Positions 8,211 through 20,985 of a stretch of DNA of 64,000 nucleotides are shown here, one piece after another; the stretch's first letter is position 1; each line of letters begins with the position of its first letter. Made by a program: the position numbers and the translations under genes. The notes beneath the pieces are model-generated. The model did not search any database, had not been told where the DNA came from, and was given only the letters and a program-made list of their open reading frames with translations. Source of the DNA: Gemmatimonadota bacterium (GTDB lineage: Bacteria; Gemmatimonadota; Gemmatimonadetes; Palauibacterales; KS3-K002); NCBI GenBank assembly GCA_039586795.1, contig JBDHJS010000001.1, forward strand, positions 32,001-96,000, given 5' to 3'.

Positions 8211-8795
8211 CTAGCGGCTCCCGCCCAGCTGCTTGCCAACCACCAGCCGGAACTGCAGGGAGTTGTTCTTCGTGCTGCTGTTCTCGAACACGTCGGACAA
8301 TCCCCACACCCAACGCGTATCGATTCCGACGAACACTCCGTTGTCCATCCACTTACCGAACATGAGTCCGACCGGTATCGTCCACTGCGTGCTCTTGACG
8401 TCCGGACACGCATCGACAACCCCGCTCGTGCTACACGACACCTCGAACCCGACGCTGACGCCGCCGTAACCCCGGACGATCGTCCCCCAGCCCCCGACGA
8501 TCCCTCCACCGATCAACAGCGGAATGTCGATGTAACTCACGCGGGTGTTGTTGCCGCCCATCTGGACCCAGTTGGCTTCCAAGTTCGCCTGGACGTTTTG
8601 GCCAAAAGTGCGGCCGATCATCAGGCCGGCTGTCCCGCCCCAGATGGTGTTGCTGAAGAACCCACTAGTAGATGAATAGCTCACCGTGGCTCCACCCTGC
8701 ACGCCGGCTAGTGTGACACCGCTTTGCGCTTGCGCCAACGTCGCGACCGTCAGGGCGAGAGCGAGTGTCAGTCCGAGTATCTTTGACAATGTCAT
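8211..8795 (-). CDS. Outer-membrane beta-barrel (porin family) protein
   Basis: Signal peptide, alternating beta strands, YIDIPLL, WGLSDVF. Confidence 0.7.
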   Translation of the reverse strand: MTLSKILGLTLALALTVATLAQAQSGVTLAGVQGGATVSYSSTSGFFSNTIWGGTAGLMIGRTFGQNVQANLEANWVQMGGNNTRVSYIDIPLLIGGGIVGGWGTIVRGYGGVSVGFEVSCSTSGVVDACPDVKSTQWTIPVGLMFGKWMDNGVFVGIDTRWVWGLSDVFENSSTKNNSLQFRLVVGKQLGGSR

Positions 8796-8974
8796 CCTCT
8801 TCGTCTCCCACGTGTTGATGTTCGTGTCTGTCCGTCCAGTACACTTTCCCGCATGGTTTGGGCGTCCAATTTCGCGACAGGAGAGGTCAGCGGCAAGGAG
8901 GGTCTAGCCTCTGGCACTCGGCAAGGACGCTGGAGTATTGCGCTCCCCTTACCTTCGTTCCAGACTGAAGGCCC

Positions 8975-10441
8975 ATGAGCCACGAGACCGAGATCCGTTC
9001 CCTGCCCTGGCGCTACCGGCTAGACGTGCTATCGCCGGATGAGCTCGCCGAAGTCCACGGCCGGACGGTGGATGTCCTCCACGAGATCGGCATCGAGGTG
9101 GGCTCGCCGGCAATCCTCGAGCAGCTTGCGGCAGCCGGAGCCGCCATCGACCTGGAGTCGAGACGTGTGCGCTTCCCCCGCGAGATGACCGAGACGGCGG
9201 TCGCTCGCGCGCCACGTAACATCACCTTCGCGTCTCGATCACCGGGCTGCGATTTGGAACTGGACGGCCAGCGCGGATACATGAGCGTCGATGGCTGCGC
9301 CTCCGATGTCATCGACCTCGACACCGGCGATCGTCGACCCTCTACGAAAGCTGATGTGGCCACCATCACACGGGTCGCCGATGCATTGCCAGAGATCGGA
9401 TTTGTCTGGCAGCCGGCAGCGGCCCGGGATGTGCCGGCCCCGGTCCAATCTCTGCACGAGTTGCACGCCCAGTTGGCCAATACCGGCAAGCACATTCAGA
9501 TGATGACCGCGGCCGAGCCGAACGCTGCCCGGGGTGTGGTCGAGATCGCTCGGCTGGCGGCCGGCGGTGACTCGGAGCTACGGCAGCGGCCCATCATCTC
9601 GAACTTCCAGTGCAGCACCAGCCCGCTGATGTACGACGGCGGCGCCGTGGAGGCCGCCATCATCTTCGCCGAGGCCGGCGTGCCCTGCGGCTTCGTCGTC
9701 ATGCCCATCGCCTGCGCGACGGGGCCGGCCACATGGGGCGGCACGCTGGTCCAGTCCAACGCGGAGGTGTTGGCCGGGATCGTGATCCTCCAGACGCTGG
9801 TGCCTGGAGCGCCGACCTTCTACGGGTCGTGCGCGACGGTGATGGACCTGCGGTCCGGCGCCGCGGCGTGCGGCGGACCGGAAGATCTGCTGCTGCAGAT
9901 GGCGTCCGCTCAACTGGCGCGTCACTACGAAGTGCCTTCCTCCATCGGCACGTTCGCCACCGGTTCGAAGTCGCCCGACTGGCAGGCGGGACTGGAGAAC
10001 GGGCTGTCGGGTTTGGCCAGCGTGCTCTCCGGCGCCGACATGCTGTGCGGCGCCGGTCTGCTGTACGGCGCCCGCGTCTACTCGGCGGAGCAGCTGGTCC
10101 TCGATACGGAGATCTTCTCTCTGCTGAGGCACATGGTGGGTGAACCCATCGATGCGGGCGCGGGTCTGCTGGACGTCCTCGACGCCGCGGGACCGGGCGG
10201 AGAGTTTCTGAGTCAGCGGCACACACTAGAGACGATGCGCAGGTTATGGCTACCTCGGATGTTCGACCGCAGCGAGTGGTCGGAATGGGAGGCGGCGGGC
10301 AAGCCCGACCCGCGTGAGGCGGCGCGGGCGCGGTTGCGTCAGATCCTCGACGAACACAAACCCGACGTGCTGGATGCGGAATTGGACGCGGAGATTCGCC
10401 GCGTCATCCAACGCTATGAGGAACAAGGAGACAGCATCTGA
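8975..10441 (+). CDS. mttB: Trimethylamine methyltransferase superfamily protein (MttB, non-pyrrolysine; MT1)
   Basis: TSPLMYD, GPAT..GTLVQSNAEVLAG, MDLRSG, SK.PDWQAG.E, GPGGEFL..HT; no in-frame TAG. Confidence 0.9.
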   Translation: MSHETEIRSLPWRYRLDVLSPDELAEVHGRTVDVLHEIGIEVGSPAILEQLAAAGAAIDLESRRVRFPREMTETAVARAPRNITFASRSPGCDLELDGQRGYMSVDGCASDVIDLDTGDRRPSTKADVATITRVADALPEIGFVWQPAAARDVPAPVQSLHELHAQLANTGKHIQMMTAAEPNAARGVVEIARLAAGGDSELRQRPIISNFQCSTSPLMYDGGAVEAAIIFAEAGVPCGFVVMPIACATGPATWGGTLVQSNAEVLAGIVILQTLVPGAPTFYGSCATVMDLRSGAAACGGPEDLLLQMASAQLARHYEVPSSIGTFATGSKSPDWQAGLENGLSGLASVLSGADMLCGAGLLYGARVYSAEQLVLDTEIFSLLRHMVGEPIDAGAGLLDVLDAAGPGGEFLSQRHTLETMRRLWLPRMFDRSEWSEWEAAGKPDPREAARARLRQILDEHKPDVLDAELDAEIRRVIQRYEEQGDSI

Positions 10442-11082
10442 TGGAAGAGCTACTTGCATCCCTACGACAGGCAATCCTCACGCAAGATGAGGAAGGTGCG
10501 CTGAAGGCGACCCGCAGCCTGTTGGAGTCGAGCATCGACCCGCAGACGATCCTCGAGTCGGGTCTTACCGAGGCGATGCTCGAGCTGGGACGCAGGTGGA
10601 AATGCGGCGACGCGTTTCTTCCCGAGGTGGTCGTCGCCGCCGACATCTTCGCGCGCTGTAGCGAGCTGGTGGAGCCCGCCCTGCTCGAGCGTCGCGACGA
10701 TCGACTCCCCGCCCACCGCCTCGTGCTGGCCACGGTCCAGGGCGACCTGCACGACCTGGGCAAGAACATCGTGGGTGCGATGGCAAAGACCGTCGGCTTC
10801 GAGGTGGTCGACCTGGGCAAGAACGTGCCGACCGACCAGATCGTCGCCGCCGCCAAAGAGGCGAGCCCGTGCATCGTTGGGCTGAGCGCGCTGTTGACCA
10901 CCACCATGCCCCAGCAGAAGGTCGCCGTCGAAGCGATCAAGGCGGCGGGCCTCGGGCCGGCGGTGCGAGTGATCATCGGCGGAGCGCCGGTCACCAAGGA
11001 ATGGGCTGACGAAATTGGCGCTGACGGCTACGCGCCCGACGCCGCCAGCGCGACCGAGCTCGCGCTGTCACTCGTCGACTAG
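10441..11082 (+). CDS. Cognate corrinoid protein (MttC/MtbC-like)
   Basis: B12-binding DxHxxG motif GDLHDLGKN; LSALLTTTM; GGAPVT..WADEIGADGY. Confidence 0.92.
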   Translation: MEELLASLRQAILTQDEEGALKATRSLLESSIDPQTILESGLTEAMLELGRRWKCGDAFLPEVVVAADIFARCSELVEPALLERRDDRLPAHRLVLATVQGDLHDLGKNIVGAMAKTVGFEVVDLGKNVPTDQIVAAAKEASPCIVGLSALLTTTMPQQKVAVEAIKAAGLGPAVRVIIGGAPVTKEWADEIGADGYAPDAASATELALSLVD

Positions 11083-11095
11083 CCGGGGAGTTCAG

Positions 11096-11959
11096 GTGGA
11101 GACCGTCCTGCAATCACGCACTCGTTCCGTCACGATCGGACCGGAACACCCGTTCGTGATCATCGGCGAACGGATCAATCCCACCGGCCGGAAGCAGCTG
11201 ACCGAAGAGTTGCTCCGCGGCGACATGGAGACGGTGCGTGCGGACGCCATCGCCCAGGTTGGAGCCGGTGCCGATGTTCTCGACCTCAACGTCGGGGCGG
11301 TGGGCGCAGACGAAGTGCGCCTCTTGCCCGACGTGGTCACCGCCGTACAAGACGTCGTCGACGCGCCGCTCTGTATCGATTCGCCGAAGCACGATGCGTT
11401 GGAGGCGGCGCTGAAGGCCTGCGACGGCAAGCCGCTCGTCAACTCGGTTACCGGCGAAGATCACAGCCTCGATCGCATCTTGCCTAAGGTGCGTGAGCAC
11501 GGCGCGGCGGTGATCGGCCTGGCGCATGGCGACGCGGGCATCTCGATGAACCCGCCAGATCGCCTGGACGCGGCGCGCCGCATCGTGGAGCGAGCCGACG
11601 AGCTCGGCATCTCGGCCGAAGACGTCATCATCGATCCGCTGGTCATGTCGGTGGGCGCCGACCCGCAGGCGGCGGACATCGCACTCGAGACAATGCGCCT
11701 CGTACGTCAGGAGCTTGGCGCCAACCTCGTGTGCGGGCTGTCCAATGTCTCTCACGGCCTACCGGGTCGCGCCGATCTCAGCTCCGCGTTTCTCGCGATG
11801 GCCATCCAGGCCGGGCTCACGTGCGCTATCGCAAACCCGCAATCTCCGCAGGTGATGCGGATGGCCCGCACGGCGGAGGTGCTCGCCGGTCGCGACCCCT
11901 ACGCCAAGCGGTGGATCCGCGCCTACCGGGAGGAGATGGGCAGATCGGGGGGCGACTGA
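11096..11959 (+). CDS. Methyltetrahydrofolate:corrinoid methyltransferase (pterin-binding, AcsE/MetH-like; MT2)
   Basis: IIGERINPTGRK, LDLNVG, IDS, LVNS, GLSNVSHGLP.R; GTG 11096 with GGGGAG RBS. Confidence 0.9.
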   Translation: METVLQSRTRSVTIGPEHPFVIIGERINPTGRKQLTEELLRGDMETVRADAIAQVGAGADVLDLNVGAVGADEVRLLPDVVTAVQDVVDAPLCIDSPKHDALEAALKACDGKPLVNSVTGEDHSLDRILPKVREHGAAVIGLAHGDAGISMNPPDRLDAARRIVERADELGISAEDVIIDPLVMSVGADPQAADIALETMRLVRQELGANLVCGLSNVSHGLPGRADLSSAFLAMAIQAGLTCAIANPQSPQVMRMARTAEVLAGRDPYAKRWIRAYREEMGRSGGD

Positions 11960-11964
11960 CCGGC

Positions 11965-13650
11965 ATGGGTTCGCCCGATCACGAGGTCCGCTTCCAATCC
12001 TCAGGAAGAACCGCTCGCGTGGCGAGCGAGACCAGCGTGCTGGCCGCGGCGGCCTGGGCCGGCGTCTCCGTCGATTCCGCCTGCGGCGGACACGGAACGT
12101 GCGGAGACTGCCGGGTCAGGATCGTCGAAGGCGCCGTTCCGATCACGCCCGCCGACGAACAACATCTCTCTGAGGCCGAACGCGTCGACGGCTGGAGATT
12201 GGCCTGCCGCGCGATGGTCCGCGGTGACGTTCTCTGCGAAGCCCCGGAACTCTCCGAGCACCCTCGCGCCGCGGTAGAGGGGATCGGACGCGACATCGCG
12301 GTCGAGCCGGCGGTCAGGCTCGAAACCGTCCCGACGGGAACCGCAATAGTTTGCGGCGACCACCAACTCGACGTCATCGAAGTCGGGTCACCCCGGGGGC
12401 TCTACGGCGTGGCTTTCGACCTTGGCACGACAACGGTAGCCGGCGCGCTCGTCGATCTCGTCGAAGGCGACGTCGTGGCCGCGACGAGCATGGTCAACCG
12501 ACAGGTCACCGCCGGGGCAGATGTAATCAGCCGTGCCGCCTTCGCCCGTGCGAACGCCGATGGCATCAGCCAGCTTCAGAGCATGGCCGTGCAAACTCTG
12601 AACGAACTGGTGCTCGTGTTGTGTGGTCAGGCAGGAATCTCGTCGGCTGGCGTGTACGAGACCGTCGTGACTGGCAACGCCATCATGCTTCACATCCTGC
12701 GTGGCCACGACCCGCACCCGCTGGCCGTGGCGCCATTCGAGCCGGCGTTCCGGGAAGCGCTCGACACTGAAGCCGCCGAGATCGGACTCGCCGGCCATCG
12801 ACAGGGACGACTGCAGACCTTCCCGATCATCGGAACGTATGCGGGCGGCGATACCGTGGCCGGCCTTCACGCCACCGACCTGGTACGAGGTGACCGCCCA
12901 CGGCTCCTGATCGACCTAGGCACGAACACCGAGGTGGGGCTCGGATGGAGCGGACGGGTCGTCGTCGCTTCGGCGCCCGCCGGACCCGCTTTCGAGGGCG
13001 GAAGCGTCCGCTGCGGGATGCCCGCGGTACGCGGGGCGATCGTTCGGGTGAAGATCGGCTCGGATGTCGACCTAGAAGTCATCGGCGGCGTAGCGCCGCG
13101 GGGCATCTGCGGCTCCGGGCTGGTGGACGCCGTCGCCCAACTGCGTCGCGCCGGTCTCCTCGATCGAACGGGTTTGCTGACTTCGAAAGATGAAGCGCCG
13201 GACCATCCACTGGCTGATCGCCTGAACACAATAGACGGCGCGCGGGTTTTTCGCCTGACCGACAACATCTACTTAAGCCAACTCGACATCCGGGAGTTGC
13301 AGTCGGCGATCGCCGCGGTGGCGGCAGCCACCCGGATCGTCATGGAGGAAGAAGAGGTCGATCCCGCCGATCTCGCCGACGTCTTCATTGCCGGCTCGTT
13401 CGGCGCCGCACTCGACCCGGCCAGCGCGAGGATCGTCGGGTTGGTGCCTTCCGTTTCTGATCACGTGGTTAGCAGCGTAGGCAACGCGGCGATCGAGGGC
13501 GCCAAGGCAGCGCTGATCTCGTTCCGTGAACGCCAGGTCGCGTTCCAGATTCCTTCCCACGCTGAATACGTGGAGCTGTCAGCCCACCCGAAATTCAACG
13601 ACACGTTCCTCGATGCGATGAAGTTCCCTGACTTGGAGGCGTTGTCATGA
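11965..13650 (+). CDS. Reductive activator of corrinoid enzymes (RACE/RamA-like, ASKHA ATPase with N-terminal 2Fe-2S domain)
   Basis: CGGHGTCGDC..RLAC ferredoxin; DLGTTT, DLGTNTE, AGPAFEG, GICGSG, AGSFG. Confidence 0.9.
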   Translation: MGSPDHEVRFQSSGRTARVASETSVLAAAAWAGVSVDSACGGHGTCGDCRVRIVEGAVPITPADEQHLSEAERVDGWRLACRAMVRGDVLCEAPELSEHPRAAVEGIGRDIAVEPAVRLETVPTGTAIVCGDHQLDVIEVGSPRGLYGVAFDLGTTTVAGALVDLVEGDVVAATSMVNRQVTAGADVISRAAFARANADGISQLQSMAVQTLNELVLVLCGQAGISSAGVYETVVTGNAIMLHILRGHDPHPLAVAPFEPAFREALDTEAAEIGLAGHRQGRLQTFPIIGTYAGGDTVAGLHATDLVRGDRPRLLIDLGTNTEVGLGWSGRVVVASAPAGPAFEGGSVRCGMPAVRGAIVRVKIGSDVDLEVIGGVAPRGICGSGLVDAVAQLRRAGLLDRTGLLTSKDEAPDHPLADRLNTIDGARVFRLTDNIYLSQLDIRELQSAIAAVAAATRIVMEEEEVDPADLADVFIAGSFGAALDPASARIVGLVPSVSDHVVSSVGNAAIEGAKAALISFRERQVAFQIPSHAEYVELSAHPKFNDTFLDAMKFPDLEALS

Positions 13651-14252
13651 CCCGCCCGGCCCGGCCGGCGCCGCTGGCGATCATCGTCTGCGGGGCGCTC
13701 GCCGTGGACGTGCGGCGCATCCTGGACGAACGCGATTGGCAGGCGGACGTGTACGGCGTGCCGGCGATCCATCACATGCACCCGCCGAAGATCGTCGAAG
13801 CTGTGGATACGCTGCTGGGCGAAGTAGCGGATCGCTATGACAAGGTGATCGTGGTCTACGGCGACTGCGGTACCTCGGGCGCGCTGGACCGAATGCTCGA
13901 ACGCCACCGCGCCGAGCGGACGGCGGGCGAGCACTGCTACGAGATCTACTGCGGATGCGGGTTCGGCGAACTGGCCCAACGCAGCCCGACCACCTATTTC
14001 CTCACCGACTACCTGGCCAAGAACTGGGACGAAGTCGTGGCCGCGGAGATGGGGTTCGATGAGAACCCAGCTCTCAAGGAGCGGTTCTTCGCCGGGTTCA
14101 CCTCGATGACCTACCTGAGACAGTCAGAGGACCCCGATCTGCTGGAGGCGGCAGAGCGCGTTGCCGCCTCGCTGGGTCTGCCGCTGGAGATCGAGACCGT
14201 CGGCCGCCGTGAACTCGAGGCCGAACTCGAGCGTTTGATCAGCAGCCGCTGA
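13647..14252 (+). CDS. DUF1638 family protein
   Basis: CGALA, H.HP.KI, YGDCGT.G.LD, HCYE, YFLTDYL. Confidence 0.8.
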   Translation: MTRPARPAPLAIIVCGALAVDVRRILDERDWQADVYGVPAIHHMHPPKIVEAVDTLLGEVADRYDKVIVVYGDCGTSGALDRMLERHRAERTAGEHCYEIYCGCGFGELAQRSPTTYFLTDYLAKNWDEVVAAEMGFDENPALKERFFAGFTSMTYLRQSEDPDLLEAAERVAASLGLPLEIETVGRRELEAELERLISSR

Positions 14253-14330
14253 CCCTGTCCGGTCACGCCCGGCTTCTGCGCATAAGGAAAGTAGGACCGC
14301 AGAAGGCCCCAATTACCAAGGAAGAGGCAC

Positions 14331-15116
14331 GTGACGCACGCACCTCCAGTACCCGACGTTGACGTCGAAACGCTCCGTTGCGAGATCCGCAACGAATACG
14401 CTGAAGTCGCCGAGAATCCCGGCCGCGGCTTCCATTTCCACACGGGCCGGCCCCTGGCGAAGATCCTCAGTTACGAAGAAGCTTTGCTAGACGCCGTACC
14501 CGAGAGCGCCATCGAGTCGTTCGCCGGCACCGGCAACCCGTTCAGCCTGGGCGCGATCGCGCCGGGCGCTCGGATCGTCGATATCGGCTCCGGCGCGGGA
14601 ATCGACTCCCTCATCGCCGGACACCTAGCCGGCACCTCCGGCCACGTCATCGGGGTCGACATGACACCCGAGATGCTGGAGAAAGCGACACAGGCCGCGG
14701 AACAGGCGGGCATGGCCCAGGTCGAGTTCCGAGAGGGCTACGCCGAGGCGCTGCCGGTCGACGACGGCTGGGCGGATCTCGTCATCTCGAACGGCGTCAT
14801 TAACCTCTGCCCGGACAAGGTTGCCGCATTCGGCGAGATGCACCGCGTCTTGAAGCCGGGCGGCCGTATCCAGATCGCCGACATCCTGGTGCAGAAGGCC
14901 GTTCCCCTCGATGCGAAGCGCGACATCGATCTCTGGAAGGGTTGAATCGCGGGCGCTCTGCTGGAGGCAGAGCTTCAGGCGACGGTGGAGGCGGCGGGCT
15001 TCCACGGGTTCGAGATCACCTGGCGCGATGACGTCTTCGCCGGCGCACCACAGCAGTCGAGCGCCGCCGCTTTCGGGACGCTGGGGATCAACTTCCGCGC
15101 CGCGAAAGCCCGATAG
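14331..15116 (+). CDS. ArsM-like SAM-dependent methyltransferase, probable selenoprotein (Sec at codon 205, TGA 14943-14945)
   Basis: VDIGSGAGID, GVDMTPEML, ISNGVINL; LWKG-TGA-IAGAL continues in frame 56 codons to TAG 15114-15116; hairpin after TGA. Confidence 0.85.
14946..14982 (+). promoter_or_regulatory. Candidate bacterial SECIS element
   Basis: Stem GCTCTGC (14955-61)/GCAGAGC (14967-73), loop TGGAG starting 16 nt after TGA; lower TCGC/GCGA pairing. Confidence 0.75.
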
Positions 15117-15206
15117 TCCGGTCTTCAGAGCATCCGGCTCGGGAGTGAGTTCCGAAGTGCTCAACGCAACATGGACTTCTCGGCCCCGCGGAGCCCGGGC
15201 CGCGAG

Positions 15207-16667
15207 TCAGAGATTCAACGCCCCGTAGAGGAAGCCGGTAAGAGCGGACATCGCTACGACCAGAACGATGAAAACCGCGGTCTTCTTGGTACCGATCACA
15301 CTTCGGATCACCAAGATGCTCGGCAACGATACCGCTGGACCGGCCAACAAGAGCGCCAGTGCCGGACCGCTCCCCATACCGCTGCTCAACAGGCCGTCGA
15401 GGATCGGAACCTCAGTCAGCGTGGCGAAATACATGAACGCCCCGGCGACCGATGCGAACAGATTCGCCAACGGTGAGTTACCACCAACCGCGTCGGCCAC
15501 CCAACCTGACGGAATCAGACCCTCGTGTCCCGGGCGCCCTAACAGAAAACCCGCTACCAGCACACCCGCCAGTAGCAGCGGAAGAATCTGTTTGGCATAA
15601 CCCCAAGACGAAGCGAACCACTCTCCCAACTCGCCGTCGCTGGTGCTCGCCACAGCTGAGAGCCCCACGGTCGCCGCGACGAATGGAACGGAGGGCCGTC
15701 CGGGAAAGGCCAACGCGAGCCCGACAGTGGCTATAGACACGGCCAGCAACTGCCAGACCCTCATTCCGAACCAGCGTACGAGAACGATGCCCAATCCAGC
15801 GGCGAGCAGAGCCGTGATCGTCCACTTGGCGGCGTAGATCTCGTGCCAGATCCCCGCCGTCATCCCCGGTCTGCCCCAGTTGGCGAAGACCAGAATGCCG
15901 ACCAGCAGCATGAAGTAGAGAGCCGTCTTCCAAATGGGCCGGCCTTCGTCCGATACGGGAAGCTCGGCCTTCGTCCTTTCCCGTTGGCTCTCTCCGCGAC
16001 GGAAGAACGCGTGCATCAACAGACCGATGACCACCGCAAATACGATGGCTCCCACGGCCCGGGCAATCCCGAGGTGCGGGCCCAGTATTCGAGCCGTCAA
16101 GATGATTGCCAGAACGTTTATCGCCGGACCCGAGTACAGGAATGCGGTGGCAGGCCCGAGGCCGGCGCCCGTCGCGTAGATCCCCGCAAACAGCGGGAGC
16201 ACGGTGCAGGAGCAGACGGCTAGTATCGTACCCGATACTGAGGCCACGCCGTATGCAAGTGCTTTGGGAGCTCGCGGCCCGAGGTAGCGAAGCACTGACT
16301 GCTGACTGACGAACACTGAGATCGCACCGGCGATGAAGAAGGCCGGGACCAGGCACAACAGTACATGCTCGCGGGCATACCACTTGGTGAGCTCGAGGGA
16401 CTCGTTCACCGCCCCGTCGAATCTCGCGTTACCCACCGGTAGGTACCAAGCGGCGATGAAGACGCCGACGATCACAACCAGGGGCTTCCACTCTCGCCCC
16501 CACTCCAGGGCCACGGTCCGTCGCTTGCGACGGCTCCACCAGTTGGCGAGGCGTTCCCGCGCACTCAGCCTGGACTCGCCTACCTCGGCTGCCGGGCCCG
16601 GCGCCTGCCCAGTCGCACCGGTGTCCGCGACCGTCGTTGCTCGCCTCGGCTCCGTCACCGAACCCAT
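15207..16667 (-). CDS. arsP: ArsP/DUF318 family permease
   Basis: HVLLCLVPAFFIAGAI, LAVCSCTVLPLF, FLYSGPAINV, MYFATLTEVPI, LLAGPAVSLPS. Confidence 0.8.
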   Translation of the reverse strand: MGSVTEPRRATTVADTGATGQAPGPAAEVGESRLSARERLANWWSRRKRRTVALEWGREWKPLVVIVGVFIAAWYLPVGNARFDGAVNESLELTKWYAREHVLLCLVPAFFIAGAISVFVSQQSVLRYLGPRAPKALAYGVASVSGTILAVCSCTVLPLFAGIYATGAGLGPATAFLYSGPAINVLAIILTARILGPHLGIARAVGAIVFAVVIGLLMHAFFRRGESQRERTKAELPVSDEGRPIWKTALYFMLLVGILVFANWGRPGMTAGIWHEIYAAKWTITALLAAGLGIVLVRWFGMRVWQLLAVSIATVGLALAFPGRPSVPFVAATVGLSAVASTSDGELGEWFASSWGYAKQILPLLLAGVLVAGFLLGRPGHEGLIPSGWVADAVGGNSPLANLFASVAGAFMYFATLTEVPILDGLLSSGMGSGPALALLLAGPAVSLPSILVIRSVIGTKKTAVFIVLVVAMSALTGFLYGALNL

Positions 16668-16676
16668 GTCAGAGAA

Positions 16677-16919
16677 TCAGGATCGGGGGTATGTGAGTAT
16701 CGCCTTGATCTCTTTCACGCTCGGCACCCGACCTGCAACCCTGACCCGTCCATCGACCAACAGTGCAGGCGTAAGTGTGACACCTCGTTTGGCGATCTCG
16801 GCCACTTCATGCACGTACTCGACCTCGGCGTCGAGGTCCAACTCAGCTACCGCATCAAACGTGTTGCGTTTTAGAGTCTGACACCTCGAGCAGCCGGGGC
16901 CGATCACCTCAATCCTCAT
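16677..16919 (-). CDS. Small redox-active disulfide protein (thioredoxin-like, MTH895 type)
   Basis: MRIEVIGPGCSRC, TPALLVDG..GRVPS; GGAGG RBS before ATG 16919. Confidence 0.85.
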   Translation of the reverse strand: MRIEVIGPGCSRCQTLKRNTFDAVAELDLDAEVEYVHEVAEIAKRGVTLTPALLVDGRVRVAGRVPSVKEIKAILTYPRS

Positions 16920-16949
16920 TTCGAGAACCTCCGACATCATTCGAATTCT

Positions 16950-17663
16950 CTAGGGTTCAAACAGCGCCGTGAGCCGGCGCCTGAGCTCATCGCGCACTCC
17001 GCGGAACGAGTCGAGGATCTCCTCATCGCTCCCTTCTGCGGCGGCCGGATCGGAGAGCGGCCAGTGGACACGCTGCGCTTCGCCCAGCCACACCGGACAG
17101 ACCTCCTCAGCGCACAGCGTGATAACAGCGTCCACGTCGGGTCCCTCGAGCTGACGGATATCGTCGATCGCTTTGGAATGCTGGAACGCAGCATCTATAC
17201 CCGTTTCTTCCAGCGCACGAATGGCGAAAGGGTTGACCCGGGACGGTGCCGACCCGGCGGATGAGATGACGACGGTATCCGGCGCCAGGTTCCGGGCGAT
17301 TCCTTCCGCCATCTGACTGCGCGCCGAGTTTGCAACGCAGAGGAAGAGCAGATGTCGTGGTTGCAGTGCGCGAAGTATGCGAGCTTCGATCAACCACTGG
17401 GGAGGTACGCCATCCCCGTCATCGTAACGGCGGCAGGCGAAGGCCGGCGGACCGACGTCGGGCCCGGCCACATCTTCGCCGTTGACCCGCACCGTGGGAG
17501 ATCCGGGAAAAGCGAGTTGCTCAGCTTCCGTGACGTCTCGGATTTCCTTGTGAATGACCTCGGCATCGGGCGTCAAGAGAGCCGTCGTCTCCTGCACGAG
17601 CCGCCGTGCCGGCTCGGCATTGGGACAGTCGGGTGTGGTGAGGACTTCCAGGCGCAGGGTCAT
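16950..17663 (-). CDS. arsC: Arsenate reductase (LMW-PTPase type) fused to an N-terminal thioredoxin-fold domain
   Basis: LFLCVANSARSQMAEG P-loop, TLCAEEVCP, HW..DP; N-terminal DCPN...FPGSPTVRVNG...ACRRY. Confidence 0.85.
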   Translation of the reverse strand: MTLRLEVLTTPDCPNAEPARRLVQETTALLTPDAEVIHKEIRDVTEAEQLAFPGSPTVRVNGEDVAGPDVGPPAFACRRYDDGDGVPPQWLIEARILRALQPRHLLFLCVANSARSQMAEGIARNLAPDTVVISSAGSAPSRVNPFAIRALEETGIDAAFQHSKAIDDIRQLEGPDVDAVITLCAEEVCPVWLGEAQRVHWPLSDPAAAEGSDEEILDSFRGVRDELRRRLTALFEP

Positions 17664-17666
17664 TCT

Positions 17667-18758
17667 CTACTCATCTCCTCCAGCCATTGCCGCGGCCGGG
17701 GCCGCTTCGCCAAAGAAACGACGTTTCAACCACAGCGACACTTGCACGAGGCCGATCATCACCGGCACCTCGACTAGCGGGCCGATGACCGTCGCGAAGG
17801 CCGGCTGTGACGCGATCCCGAACACGGCGATCGCCACGGCGATGGCGAGCTCGAAATCGTTGCTGGCCGCTGTGAGCGCAACCGTCGTGGTCTCCGGATA
17901 CTCACCCCGCAGGAAGCGCGCGGCGAAGAAGGTGATCACGAACATCGCCACGAAATAGATGGCCAATGGAATCGCGATCCGAACCACATCATACGGAAGC
18001 TGCACGATCAGCTCGCCCTTTAGGGAGAACATCACGACAACGGTAAACAGCAAAGCCGCCAAAGTGATTGGGCTGATGCGCGGGATGAATACCCGCTCGT
18101 ACCATTCCCTTCCTTTGAGCTTCAGCAGTGAAAACCGCGTGATGAGACCCGCTAAGAACGGGATGCCCAGGTAGATGAACACGGTACGGGCGATCTCTCC
18201 CACGCTCACATGCATCTCCGCACCCTGAAACCCGAAGAGCGGCGGCAGCAGCGTGATGAAGAACCAGGCGTAGAACCCGTAGAACAGCACCTGGAAAACG
18301 GCATTAGCCGCCACCAGACCTGCCGCCAAGTCGTGGTCACCCTCTGCCAAGTCGTTCCACACCAGCACCATGGCGATACACCGCGCGAGTCCCACCAAGA
18401 TCAAGCCGACGGCATAGCCCGGCATGTCGCGCAGCAACAGGACGGCTAGGAAGAACATCACCAGCGGCCCGATGACCCAGTTCTGCAACAGCGACAGCGC
18501 CAGTATCCGCTTGTGCCGCAGGACCACCCAGAATTTCTCGTAGCGAACTTTGGCGAGCGGCGGGTACATCATCAGGATGAGGCCGATCGCAATAGGAATG
18601 GAAGTCGTCCCGATCTGGGTCGCACGATTGAGCGCCTCGACCGGCTCGGGCCACAGATAGCCGATCGCGACTCCCAAGGCCATGGCGGCGAAAATCCAGA
18701 CCGTCAGATAGCGGTCGAGAAACGAAAGTCGCCGCGCTACGGAACTGTCAGCAGCCAC
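17667..18758 (-). CDS. acr3: Acr3 arsenite efflux transporter
   Basis: [47 protein letters not shown]. Confidence 0.95.
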
Positions 18759-19144
18759 TATGAACTCACTTTCGATCTAGAAGGCGCCACCTCCCGCGGG
18801 GCCGCGGCCGGATGACAGCGCTTGGCTCTCATCTCGTCCAGTTCACCCGCGACCTCCGGAACCGGGACATCAGCCAGCACCCGCCGGAGCATCTCGAGCA
18901 GGGTCCGCTGTTCTTCGCGCGTCGGCTCCGCGGGATGGTAGTAGACCCACAGACCATCCCGACGGTCCTGCAACAACCCGGCGTTGAGCAGGTAACGAAG
19001 GTGCCGGGACGCCTTGGACTGCGAAATCTCGAGAAACCGCTCAACCTCGCAGACGCAAAGTTCCCCGTGGCGGAAGATGAGAGCGAGGATCTGAAGGCGA
19101 ACGTCTTCGGAGAGCGCCTTGAACTGCTGCGTCAGCTGGAGCAT
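18758..19144 (-). CDS. arsR: Arsenic-responsive ArsR repressor
   Basis: ELCVCE metal site, [19 protein letters not shown]; start ATG 19144. Confidence 0.9.
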
Positions 19145-19145
19145 G

Positions 19146-19175
19146 ATTATACCCGTGTATGCGGTTATACATGAC
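19146..19175 (-). promoter_or_regulatory. Candidate ArsR operator/promoter
   Basis: Imperfect inverted repeat ATACCCGTGT/ATGCGGTTAT (19149-19168) and TATAAT just upstream of arsR. Confidence 0.4.
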
Positions 19176-19254
19176 AAACATACCCCAGCCTGGCCCTCGC
19201 CACAAGAACGTGGGCCGCACGCGCGGGCAATTGCAGGCACGCGCGCTCCTGGCT

Positions 19255-20985
19255 TCATTGGCTGCCGAGGCGCACTTCCATTCGCGTCATGCCGCCCTTT
19301 TCAGAACGCACCGTAATCGAGAGACGCGGGTCACTTCCCGCCGAGCGTACCACGTACTCGAAGGTCCGGCGCGCGGCGGCTGTCCCAGTCCGGCCCTGGG
19401 TGTCCCGCGTGCCGAGAAGGTGGCCGAGGTCGGCCCGCGCCTGACCTGAGACCAGCTCTGCATCGGATAGGTCTAGAGTCACGCGGACCGGCACCGCGAC
19501 ATTCGCGTCCAGCGCCCGCCGTGTGATGTTCGTCGGCAGATAGCCTTCGTTCTCGACGACGCCGGTGATCTTGAACAGGCCGGAGCCCAACGACTCGGTC
19601 TCCACGTCCTTGAGAACCACCCGAGGGCTGATCTCAGCCAGCCACAGCATCCACGGCACGTACAACTCGAGCTCGCCCTTCAAGAACTGCGACGGTGGGT
19701 TCTGGCGCGTGAACTTGCTGCGCCAGCCGCCGATCTCGACCCGGCCAAGCTGGGGATGGTCGTAGGCCGTCCAATCGGCGAAGCCTTCACCGTCCAGCTC
19801 TTCCTCGTTCCATCGGTGCCGCTCGGCTTCCGAGACGTTGCCGTCATCATCGTAGTCGCGACCGAAGCCGCCCCAGAACTCGGGGACGAAGGCGACAACA
19901 CCGAAGTCCCAGTACGACCACGAAATCAAAGTGCCGTAACGGTGGATGCGCGGGTTGCTGTAGCTGGGAATTGCTCGTTGCCCGGTGGTCGATTCGTACT
20001 TACGCGACATCTCCAAGATCAAGGACTGGTCAGACAGAACGTAGTCGTCCCACGATGTAGTGGACGGGAGTCGGAACAGGAAGCCACCGGACGTGTGCCC
20101 ATGGAACACTCCGGTGATGTTGCGGTGCGAATTGAGGAACTCGATCGTCGCCCGGGTCTCGGGCTCAGACAATGGATAGGGTCCTGCACCGGTCTGCTCG
20201 AACTCCATCCCCCAGTTGCGCGGGAAGTTACGATTCATGTCGATGCCGCCTGGCCCATCTTCGTTGAACAGGCCGTCGTCATCGTCATCGATTCCCTCTG
20301 AGTAAACCGCGAAGAACTCGCCCTCGAAGTCCTCATCGCCGCGGCGCTCCATGATGCGCGAGTCGGACCGGTTCACCTTCCAGCGACCGTTGGCATTGGG
20401 CACACGCATCTGCGTGATGGCGCCGTCGCCGTCCAGGTCGTTCCCCGGATCCTCATCCAGTAATCCATCGCCGTCCTGGTCGTACGGGCGTGGGGTGCTC
20501 CGCAGGTTCTGCTCAGTATTCAGCGCGATGTCCGCGCCATCCGGATTGAACTTCGGCCGGACGTACAGCGTCCTCGTATCGACGAGGCGAGTGACCCGGT
20601 CATCACTGCCGTAGTTGGAGAGGAGATACCAGGCGAAGTGAAGCGCCACCTCGGCACCGGTCAGCTCGCCGGCGTGGATATTCCCATCGTAATAGTAGCC
20701 GGGTTTCTCGCCCGCTGCGCCCGTACCCTTGTTCGTGATCTCCAGGACGAGGAGCGGCGTACCCTCCAGCGTCTCACCGATGGAGTACAGCCGGGTTAGC
20801 TGCGGATACGCTTGCGCCCAATCCTCGAGCAACGCGTATGCCCGCTCGGTGGAGTGGTAGGTGTTCCAGCTGGGATCGCGGGGGTTCTCATCCTGGGCGA
20901 ACAGCGGTACCGCCGAAGAAGGAGCGAGCACCAGGCTCCAGCAGGCGAACACAATCAGATAACGCCTAATGGCATCAGCAGGCAT
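19255..20985 (-). CDS. Secreted M14 family zinc carboxypeptidase
   Basis: GNIHAGE (HxxE), NPDG, DMNRNFP, SEPET, GHTSG; acidic EF-like loops. Confidence 0.85.
   Translation of the reverse strand: MPADAIRRYLIVFACWSLVLAPSSAVPLFAQDENPRDPSWNTYHSTERAYALLEDWAQAYPQLTRLYSIGETLEGTPLLVLEITNKGTGAAGEKPGYYYDGNIHAGELTGAEVALHFAWYLLSNYGSDDRVTRLVDTRTLYVRPKFNPDGADIALNTEQNLRSTPRPYDQDGDGLLDEDPGNDLDGDGAITQMRVPNANGRWKVNRSDSRIMERRGDEDFEGEFFAVYSEGIDDDDDGLFNEDGPGGIDMNRNFPRNWGMEFEQTGAGPYPLSEPETRATIEFLNSHRNITGVFHGHTSGGFLFRLPSTTSWDDYVLSDQSLILEMSRKYESTTGQRAIPSYSNPRIHRYGTLISWSYWDFGVVAFVPEFWGGFGRDYDDDGNVSEAERHRWNEEELDGEGFADWTAYDHPQLGRVEIGGWRSKFTRQNPPSQFLKGELELYVPWMLWLAEISPRVVLKDVETESLGSGLFKITGVVENEGYLPTNITRRALDANVAVPVRVTLDLSDAELVSGQARADLGHLLGTRDTQGRTGTAAARRTFEYVVRSAGSDPRLSITVRSEKGGMTRMEVRLGSQ

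What the first reader, a model, noticed from the sequence alone, without database searches (positions are those of the whole stretch)
14331..15116. Hidden selenoprotein: ArsM-like methyltransferase whose apparent stop is a Sec codon
Seen: the ORF track ends the gene at TGA 14943-14945 (LWKG*), but the frame continues IAGALLEAELQATVEAAGFHGFEI...RAAKAR to TAG 15116. A perfect 7 bp hairpin (GCTCTGC-TGGAG-GCAGAGC) has its loop 16 nt after the UGA, with G at loop position 2. Known: ArsM/AS3MT enzymes have LW.GC(I/V)AGAL at this position, the Cys being an arsenic-binding residue; bacterial SECIS elements have this geometry. Also seen: the other canonical ArsM cysteines are replaced (LGCGNP is AGTGNP; SNCVINL is SNGVINL, with a new Cys in INLCPDK). 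Inference: a Sec enzyme with a remodelled active site, so its substrate may differ from arsenite.
Basis: partly seen in the sequence, partly recalled or inferred. Interest (0 to 1): 0.85.

Follow-up and report, generated by a model that had tools for sequence, protein, structure and literature searches.

The report
Selenocysteine methyltransferase lacking arsenic-binding cysteines
The apparent stop codon in this methyltransferase gene is almost certainly read as selenocysteine, a type of selenoprotein already catalogued; the enzyme lacks the other cysteines that arsenic-methylating enzymes use, and it likely methylates a sulfur or selenium compound instead, which is untested.

Summary
Observation confirmed. 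TGA 14943-14945 lies in frame in a 261-residue ArsM-fold methyltransferase, at the position of CmArsM Cys224. Of 80 related loci, 67 have TGA, 12 TGC and 1 TAG there. The 7-pair hairpin is complete in 53 of 67 TGA loci and 0 of 12 TGC loci. The genome has selA, selB, selD and tRNA-Sec. Recoding is about 97% likely.

This is a known kind. ArsM-like selenoproteins (Sec motif UxxG) are catalogued, and members of two NCBIfam selenoprotein families share the same SNC-to-SNG change. This stand-alone branch passes no NCBIfam cut-off among the 25 best hits shown, and databases cut it at 204 residues. The 'new' Cys160 is not invariant (48 of 80).

Substrate unknown. Rhodanese, DsrE, TusA or metallo-beta-lactamase genes lie near 34 of 80 loci, ars-operon genes near 1, and 17 of 120 homologues are TusA fusions. 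A sulfur or selenium acceptor is my best guess (about 40%). The corrinoid and ars operons flanking this copy recur only in one same-genus genome. The scan has reported this family before in other genomes (8 reports shown, 13 windows matched).

The parts
14331..15116 (+). Full gene: 261-aa class I SAM-dependent methyltransferase of the ArsM fold, read through TGA as Sec
   Evidence: model pLDDT 87.6; 13 best Foldseek matches are ArsM/AS3MT chains
14318..14327 (+). Purine-rich ribosome-binding-site-like stretch before the GTG start
   Evidence: sequence; function inferred; the 204-aa length to the TGA matches 21 other database homologues
14943..14945 (+). In-frame TGA = Sec205, aligned with CmArsM Cys224
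   Evidence: an independent sequencing contig covers 14836-14999 with no difference
14955..14973 (+). Bacterial SECIS hairpin, 7-pair stem, loop TGGAG, 16 nt after the UGA
14946..15116 (+). 56-codon read-through part; supplies a helix and two strands of the model; under purifying selection
14430..14450 (+). FHFHTGR motif (34-40), family signature lying roughly where canonical bacterial ArsM has its N-terminal Cys pair
   Evidence: F36, T38, G39 in 80 of 80, H35 75, H37 73 of 80; alignment to the genome's own ArsM is gapped here
14523..14540 (+). AGTGNP (65-70); T67 replaces CmArsM Cys72
   Evidence: V 51, T 20, M 7, I 2 of 80; never C
14580..14600 (+). SAM-binding motif DIGSGAG (84-90)
14787..14810 (+). 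SNGVINLC (153-160); G155 replaces CmArsM Cys174; Cys160 is variable
   Evidence: G155 in 80 of 80 loci and 120 of 120 proteins; C160 in 48 of 80 and 22 of 120
8975..14252 (+). Context, upstream: corrinoid methyltransferase operon (MttB family, corrinoid protein, methyltetrahydrofolate methyltransferase, RACo-type activator, DUF1638), ending 78 bp before the gene
   Evidence: same order in G002 only; 0 of 80 wider loci
15207..19258 (-). Context, downstream and convergent: ars operon (ArsR, Acr3, ArsC, ArsE-type thioredoxin, ArsP-type permease)
   Evidence: Acr3 and ArsC also beside the gene in G002; ArsC near 1 of 80 wider loci, Acr3 and ArsP near 0

Best explanation
The gene continues through an in-frame TGA that is almost certainly decoded as selenocysteine, and its ArsM-fold product likely uses that one selenol to hold and methylate a sulfur or selenium acceptor rather than arsenite. 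Shown: the open frame, the hairpin, the Sec machinery, the TGA/TGC pairing in relatives, the loss of the Cys72 and Cys174 equivalents. Inferred from established knowledge (about 97%): SelB-Sec-tRNA binds the hairpin 16 nt after the UGA and inserts Sec205. Inferred from the family's neighbours (about 40-45%): Sec205, beside bound SAM, would take a sulfane sulfur or selenium from a carrier such as rhodanese, TusA or DsrE, or from sulfide stress, as a Se-S or Se-Se adduct; SAM would methylate the outer atom; a thiol partner would release the methylated product (methanethiol, methylselenol or a methylated thiol) and regenerate the selenol. The confidence below is for the whole statement, substrate class included.
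For: Recoding: 67 TGA, 12 TGC, 1 TAG among the 80 best loci, each with an open frame of 54-85 codons behind the site (one TGC locus is cut at 22); all 10 close orthologues among 40 related genomes have the TGA; downstream codons differ 174 synonymous to 93 non-synonymous, upstream 666 to 487, summed over those 10 non-independent pairs. Hairpin: 7 of 7 pairs in 53 of 67 TGA loci, at least 6 in 65 of 67, at least 6 in 0 of 12 TGC loci; two stem pairs switch on both sides (TA/CG, CG/GC); rare Ala codons GCT and GCA (12% and 9% genome-wide) are fixed in 15 of 15 loci with the ALLEAE peptide. selA, selB, selD above cut-off, tRNA-Sec, and selD itself carries a TGA at its motif. selA above cut-off in 34 of 37 TGA genomes against 4 of 12 TGC genomes (50 of the 80 loci submitted). 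Substrate: Cys174 and Cys224 form the arsenical site of CmArsM (PMC6138428) and Cys174 is Gly in 80 of 80; the genome has a separate ArsM above the PRK11873 cut-off with all cysteine motifs; rhodanese, metallo-beta-lactamase, DsrE or TusA genes within 6 kb in 34 of 80 loci against 7 of 337 tiles of this genome; 17 of 120 homologues fused to a TusA domain; DsrE directly downstream in 3 of 10 close orthologues.
Against: No assay, proteomics or labelling. This copy has no sulfur-relay neighbour; its neighbours are a corrinoid operon and an ars operon. 46 of 80 loci show no sulfur-relay gene (19 of the 80 are under 8 kb). The neighbour profiles were built from these same loci and the baseline is one genome, so the enrichment is overstated; related loci are not independent. 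The fold is closest to ArsM/AS3MT. A single-cysteine arsenite methyltransferase with two histidines is reported in Thermus (bioRxiv 10.1101/2021.07.12.452139), and this family has two conserved histidines. Known H2S/methanethiol methyltransferases MddM1, MddM2 and MddH are described as UbiG/UbiE-family enzymes (PMC12904073), with no sign in the passages read that a catalytic Cys or Sec is needed. 11 of the 12 TGC loci form one clade, so the TGA/TGC contrasts rest on about two events.
Confidence: 0.42

Rival explanations
1. It is a Sec enzyme that still methylates an arsenical or a related metalloid, using Sec205 as single anchor (enough for a dimethylated species) or Sec205 with His35/His37, or Cys160 where present.
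For: ArsM fold and Sec at the Cys224 position; precedent of a one-cysteine, two-histidine arsenite methyltransferase; H35 and H37 conserved in 75 and 73 of 80; an ars operon ends 90 bp downstream here and Acr3/ArsC lie beside the orthologue in G002.
Against: Cys72 and Cys174 equivalents absent in 80 of 80; below the PRK11873 cut-off, 221.9 against 263; ars-operon genes near 1 of 80 loci; the local ars operon is on the other strand; a canonical ArsM exists elsewhere in the genome.
Confidence: 0.25
2. It is a Sec enzyme serving the upstream corrinoid methyl-transfer system, for instance by SAM-dependent remethylation of the corrinoid or by making or removing a methylated thiol.
For: Same strand, 78 bp behind DUF1638, no terminator-like site on the + strand in 8600-15500; same order in G002.
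Against: Corrinoid genes near 0 of 80 loci and absent from 17 kb around the orthologues in G023 and G015; only 47.9 bits against 180 on the corrinoid-associated methyltransferase model CpaM.
Confidence: 0.08
3. It is a Sec enzyme acting on some other small molecule or a protein thiol; the sulfur-relay neighbours only reflect shared redox-stress regulons.
For: Neighbours are varied: ECF sigma and zinc-finger anti-sigma genes, MFS transporters, OsmC, other methyltransferases; related catalogued forms are fused to AhpD or UXPK-star modules.
Against: Does not explain the TusA fusions (17 of 120) as directly.
Confidence: 0.23
4. The TGA is a true stop: a truncated pseudogene or a 204-residue protein.
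For: Databases list 204-aa products for this gene and 21 close homologues; one locus has TAG at the site.
Against: Conserved TGA/TGC pairing, conserved downstream frame and hairpin, complete Sec machinery; the cut would remove the conserved residue and two strands of the fold.
Confidence: 0.02

Closest known systems
Arsenite methyltransferase selenoprotein (NF008823/PRK11873, motif UxxG; listed in PMC13188914 Table 1 and PMC9312934, credited in the former to Fomenko et al. 2007)
   Same: Sec in a UxxG motif (UIAG) in an ArsM-type domain; same homologous site by alignment to ArsM.
   Different: Scores 221.9, below the 263 cut-off; lacks the Cys72 and Cys174 equivalents. I could not fetch the listed representative protein, so its motifs were not compared.
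NCBIfam selenoprotein families ArsM/AhpD (NF041537), ArsM/DUF2284 (NF041536), methyltransferase/UXPK-star (NF047649) (credited to Haft and Tolstoy 2025 in PMC13188914)
   Same: Three of the four best NCBIfam hits (233, 219, 215 bits); the protein scores higher on them than the genome's canonical ArsM does (182, 169, 172). Four members above cut-off (L114, L115, L126/L118, L127/L119) share ISNG, the W..U.GGA Sec site, an F.YPTG motif matching FHFHTG, and a hairpin-like sequence after the TGA.
   Different: Those are fusions with a second Sec module and keep a Cys in FCGVGNP; this protein stands alone, has FAGTGNP and two histidines; 36-43% identity; far below their cut-offs (510, 575, 460). NF041536 members were not fetched.
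CmArsM / CrArsM / human AS3MT (PDB 4FR0, 4KW7, 5EVJ, 8XT7)
   Same: Fold (TM-score 0.64-0.72), SAM motif, position of the C-terminal catalytic residue.
   Different: Three of four catalytic cysteines missing; Sec for Cys224; shorter C-terminal part.
Thermus thermophilus TtArsM (bioRxiv 10.1101/2021.07.12.452139)
   Same: Reported to work with one cysteine and two histidines.
   Different: Its cysteine is residue 77, near the N-terminus, not the C-terminal site; no sequence comparison was made here.
H2S/methanethiol S-methyltransferases MddH, MddM1, MddM2 (PMC12904073)
   Same: Class I SAM methyltransferases in overlapping phyla; the reaction proposed here is similar.
   Different: About 204-210 aa, UbiG/UbiE families; not described as ArsM-like or Sec-containing in the passages read; no sequence comparison was made.

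Membership tests
Bacterial selenoprotein gene | In-frame UGA aligned with Cys in homologues and conserved sequence on both sides | tested here: met
Bacterial selenoprotein gene | bSECIS: loop 3-9 nt, stem 4-16 bp, G in first two loop positions, 16-37 nt from UGA, at most -7.5 kcal/mol | tested here: met
   against the model (checked by my own script, not by bSECISearch)
Bacterial selenoprotein gene | selA, selB, selC, selD in the genome | tested here: met
Bacterial selenoprotein gene | Selenium shown in the protein | not testable with these tools
   needs 75Se labelling or mass spectrometry
ArsM / AS3MT arsenite methyltransferase | Class I SAM methyltransferase fold closest to ArsM | tested here: met
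ArsM / AS3MT arsenite methyltransferase | At least 3 of the 4 cysteines at CmArsM 44, 72, 174, 224 (criterion of PMC5552862) | tested here: not met
   T67, G155, U205; no Cys pair at the N-terminal site; criterion read
ArsM / AS3MT arsenite methyltransferase | NCBIfam NF008823 score at or above 263 | tested here: not met
   221.9; four Cys homologues 215.6-242.9; the genome's canonical ArsM 352.6
ArsM / AS3MT arsenite methyltransferase | Methylates As(III) | not testable with these tools
   needs an assay
ArsM-like selenoproteins NF041537 / NF041536 / NF047649 | Methyltransferase domain with Sec in UxxG and the SNG motif | tested here: met
   compared with four members above cut-off of NF047649 and NF041537
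ArsM-like selenoproteins NF041537 / NF041536 / NF047649 | Fused C-terminal module with a further Sec; score above cut-off | tested here: not met
   frame ends at TAG 15116; 233/510, 219/575, 215/460 bits
Selenoprotein methyltransferase MduS | CxxU motif, two Sec residues (PMC13188914 Table 1) | tested here: not met
   one Sec, context LWKGU; not among the 25 best NCBIfam hits shown of 47
Corrinoid-associated methyltransferase CpaM (NF043040) | Score at or above 180; conserved linkage to corrinoid genes | tested here: not met
   47.9 bits; linkage in 0 of 80 loci and 1 of 3 close genomes fetched at length
Mdd-type H2S/methanethiol S-methyltransferases | Sequence membership and S-methylation activity | not tested
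   no Mdd sequence was available from a tool; activity needs an assay

The most novel reading that the evidence does not exclude
A widespread, stand-alone branch of Sec methyltransferases (Gemmatimonadota, Chloroflexota, Actinomycetota, Dormiibacterota, Acidobacteriota and others) has left arsenic chemistry and methylates sulfane sulfur or selenium handed over by rhodanese, TusA or DsrE carriers. It would be a hidden source of methanethiol, dimethylsulfide or methylated selenium in soils and sediments, overlooked because databases cut the gene at the UGA.
Probability: 0.3. Interest if true: 0.65.

Novelty: new variant of a known kind. Interest (0 to 1): 0.3.

Why it matters
Practically: this gene and its Sec orthologues are recorded as 204-residue proteins without their catalytic residue (22 of 120 hits), some Cys forms are named 'arsenite methyltransferase' although they lack the arsenic-binding cysteines, and no NCBIfam model among the best hits covers the branch. 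That affects selenoproteome catalogues and arsM counts in metagenomes. Scientifically: natural Cys versions at 60-70% identity make the substrate question easy to test without Sec expression. If the acceptor is sulfur or selenium, it adds an enzyme class to methylated-sulfur and selenium cycling. The recoding itself would not surprise a selenoprotein specialist.

Tried and rejected
Cys160 as a conserved replacement ligand: rejected as general (48 of 80 loci; 8 of 80 loci have no other Cys in the aligned part). Functional link to the upstream corrinoid operon or the downstream ars operon: not supported beyond the genus. Folding energy of the 45 nt after the codon separates TGA from TGC loci only weakly (p = 0.06); the fixed-register pair count does so clearly. 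Promoter scan found 0 sigma-70 sites and 3 terminator-like sites against 4.2 expected: uninformative. RNA runs: four runs hold 0.11-0.24 of the words; only scattered short contigs match, which cannot show transcription or operon structure. The careful tree did not finish; the quick tree was used, and the TAG locus L063 was grouped with the TGA loci in it. The recurrent-neighbour clustering of raw ORFs was noisy and was replaced by Pfam scans (136 upstream ORFs; the 76 downstream ORFs listed were not scanned) and profile counts. Distances between His35/His37 and Sec205, SAM placement and dimer state were not obtained; no language-model look-alike search result is available. Literature: searches listed no paper that assays this branch; the library lacks most subscription journals, and Haft and Tolstoy 2025, which may discuss it, is not held.

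Full report
Observation. The window has GTG at 14331 behind a purine-rich stretch, TGA at 14943-14945 and TAG at 15114-15116. Read with TGA as Sec the frame gives 261 residues with U at 205; the standard ORF ends at 204. The hairpin lies at 14955-14973 with loop TGGAG starting 16 nt after the UGA and satisfies the bSECIS model given in PMC13188914 section 5. By itself it is modest evidence: z -2.21 in the best-fitting window, 118 of 3000 random TGA sites and 35 of 2000 synonymous recodings do as well.

Sec machinery. The genome (4.68 Mb, 97.8% complete) has selA (560.6 bits), selB (364.3), selD (375.1), each above cut-off, and a tRNA-Sec with anticodon TCA. selD has its own in-frame TGA in HGAG-U-ACK, so the organism likely uses Sec.

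Homologues. A scan of genome contigs found 504 relatives in the part scanned and kept the best 80 (one of its six seed patterns required Cys at the site, a bias towards Cys if any). At position 205, 67 have TGA, 12 TGC, 1 TAG; the frame then runs 54-85 codons, except one TGC locus cut by its contig end. Among 40 related genomes, 10 hold an orthologue at 71-85% identity, all with TGA and 56-58 further codons. Against those 10, codons after the TGA differ synonymously 174 times and non-synonymously 93 times; before it 666 and 487 (pairs share ancestry). In the protein search, 22 of 120 other hits end exactly before the site and 93 have Cys there. A contig from an independent sequencing run covers 14836-14999 without a difference, so the TGA is not an assembly error.

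Hairpin conservation. In a fixed register the 7-pair stem is complete in 53 of 67 TGA loci and has at least 6 pairs in 65; no TGC locus has more than 5 (0 of 12 at 6 or more). Two pairs change on both sides between subgroups, though these changes go with amino-acid changes. In the 15 loci encoding ALLEAE the stem codons GCT and GCA are invariant, against 12% and 9% use among alanine codons of this genome. selA passes its cut-off in 34 of 37 TGA genomes (two more have partial or split hits, one none) and 4 of 12 TGC genomes; the TAG genome gave no hit (50 of 80 loci submitted). In a quick tree of 125 rows, 11 of the 12 TGC loci form one clade nested among TGA loci and the twelfth groups with database Cys proteins, which suggests Sec-to-Cys changes but means these contrasts rest on few events.

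Protein. Pfam gives Methyltransf_31. The model from 79 sequences has pLDDT 87.6 and its 13 best structural matches are ArsM/AS3MT chains. Against CmArsM, T67 stands for Cys72, G155 for Cys174 and U205 for Cys224. The FHFHTGR motif lies about where the genome's own ArsM has its N-terminal Cys pair, in a gapped part of the alignment. CmArsM needs four cysteines for As(III) and the Cys174/Cys224 pair for MAs(III) (PMC6138428, passages); G155 is invariant (80 of 80), so that site is not intact. Cys160 is present in 48 of 80 loci, and 8 loci have no other Cys in the aligned part. The genome also encodes a canonical ArsM on another contig (352.6 bits on NF008823).

Neighbours. Upstream on the same strand is a corrinoid methyltransferase operon, downstream and convergent an ars operon. 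Both recur beside the orthologue in the same-genus genome G002, neither within 17 kb in G023 or G015. In the 80 wider loci corrinoid genes occur 0 times and ars-operon genes once; rhodanese occurs in 24, metallo-beta-lactamase of the rhodanese-linked type in 17, DsrE in 16, TusA in 7, OsmC in 7, and any of the first four in 34 of 80 (30 of 61 loci of 8 kb or more), against 7 of 337 tiles of this genome. The profiles came from these loci, so the contrast is inflated; Pfam finds 8 rhodanese, 2 DsrE and 0 TusA matches in the whole genome, a similar low baseline. Many rhodanese neighbours are ArsR-rhodanese fusions. 17 of 120 homologues end in a TusA domain. Calling these genes 'sulfur relay' and the lactamase-fold protein persulfide-dioxygenase-like rests on recalled knowledge of the Pfam families.

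Mechanism. Recoding by SelB at the hairpin is the standard pathway and about 97% likely. For catalysis I commit to a single-selenol methyltransferase acting on a sulfur or selenium acceptor: Sec205 would capture a sulfane atom, SAM would methylate it and a thiol partner would release it (about 40-45%). The main rival is arsenical or metalloid methylation with one anchor plus histidines (25%), for which a one-cysteine Thermus enzyme is precedent (bioRxiv 10.1101/2021.07.12.452139, passages). A role in the corrinoid operon (8%), another acceptor (23%) and a true stop (2%) make up the rest.

What is known. Reviews list an arsenite methyltransferase selenoprotein with motif UxxG and three fused ArsM-like selenoprotein families (PMC13188914, passages and section 5; PMC9312934, passages; PMC2398784, passages); algae have a methyltransferase selenoprotein (PMC2375036, passages). 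Fomenko 2007 and Haft and Tolstoy 2025 I saw only as citations. Members of NF047649 (2 of 201 genomes searched) and NF041537 (2 of 201) above cut-off have ISNG, the same Sec site and an F.YPTG motif, so the remodelled site belongs to a catalogued clade. This protein is not an ArsM by the cysteine criterion of PMC5552862 (passages) or by score, and not a member of the fused families; it is a stand-alone variant of that kind. Mdd S-methyltransferases (PMC12904073, passages) are functional analogues only. No supplementary files were read; catalogue supplements may already list members of this branch.

Verdict. Real selenoprotein gene, correctly spotted; known kind, unmodelled branch, substrate open. 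The scan has reported the same family in other genomes. Interest 0.3; the novel case (sulfur or selenium methyltransferase) has probability 0.3 and would merit 0.65.

Noticed in passing
L063 (Geodermatophilus sp. record), codon matching residue 205: TAG instead of TGA at the Sec position, with the downstream frame and hairpin-type sequence kept; no selA found in that incomplete genome. Pseudogene, sequencing error or another recoding is undecided.
   Followed up: partly
L102-L108 and G010:C7 (related genomes): A second, distant Sec paralogue (42-43% identity, FHF.HGR, LWAS-U-IGGAL) in 8 places; in the 7 loci fetched, TGA is followed by a hairpin of the same geometry.
   Followed up: partly
L007:1186-2163 (G000 contig C80): Canonical four-cysteine-type ArsM behind a MarR-like regulator ORF, away from the ars operon of this window (regulator name from recall).
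   Followed up: partly
window 16950-17663 (-): ArsC carries an N-terminal domain like the DF-family (seleno)protein model NF049942 (62.8 bits, cut-off 70), here with Cys and no TGA.
   Followed up: no
G000:C11:23933-24220: A rhodanese-domain match with one in-frame TGA: another selenoprotein candidate in this genome.
   Followed up: no
window 8975-14252 (+): Complete non-pyrrolysine MttB-family corrinoid demethylation operon with DUF1638, in an organism whose closest named relatives are Gemmatimonadota.
   Followed up: no
P0004 and other database proteins: 5 of 120 homologues show W, Y or R at the Sec position; W may come from genes called under a TGA=Trp code.
   Followed up: no
L016:3936-5285: selB lies next to the methyltransferase gene in one Dehalococcoidia locus.
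   Followed up: no
L062, L074, L077, L078, L090: Cys-form members sit in tandem with a second methyltransferase gene, in most of them behind an ECF sigma factor or zinc-finger anti-sigma gene.
   Followed up: no
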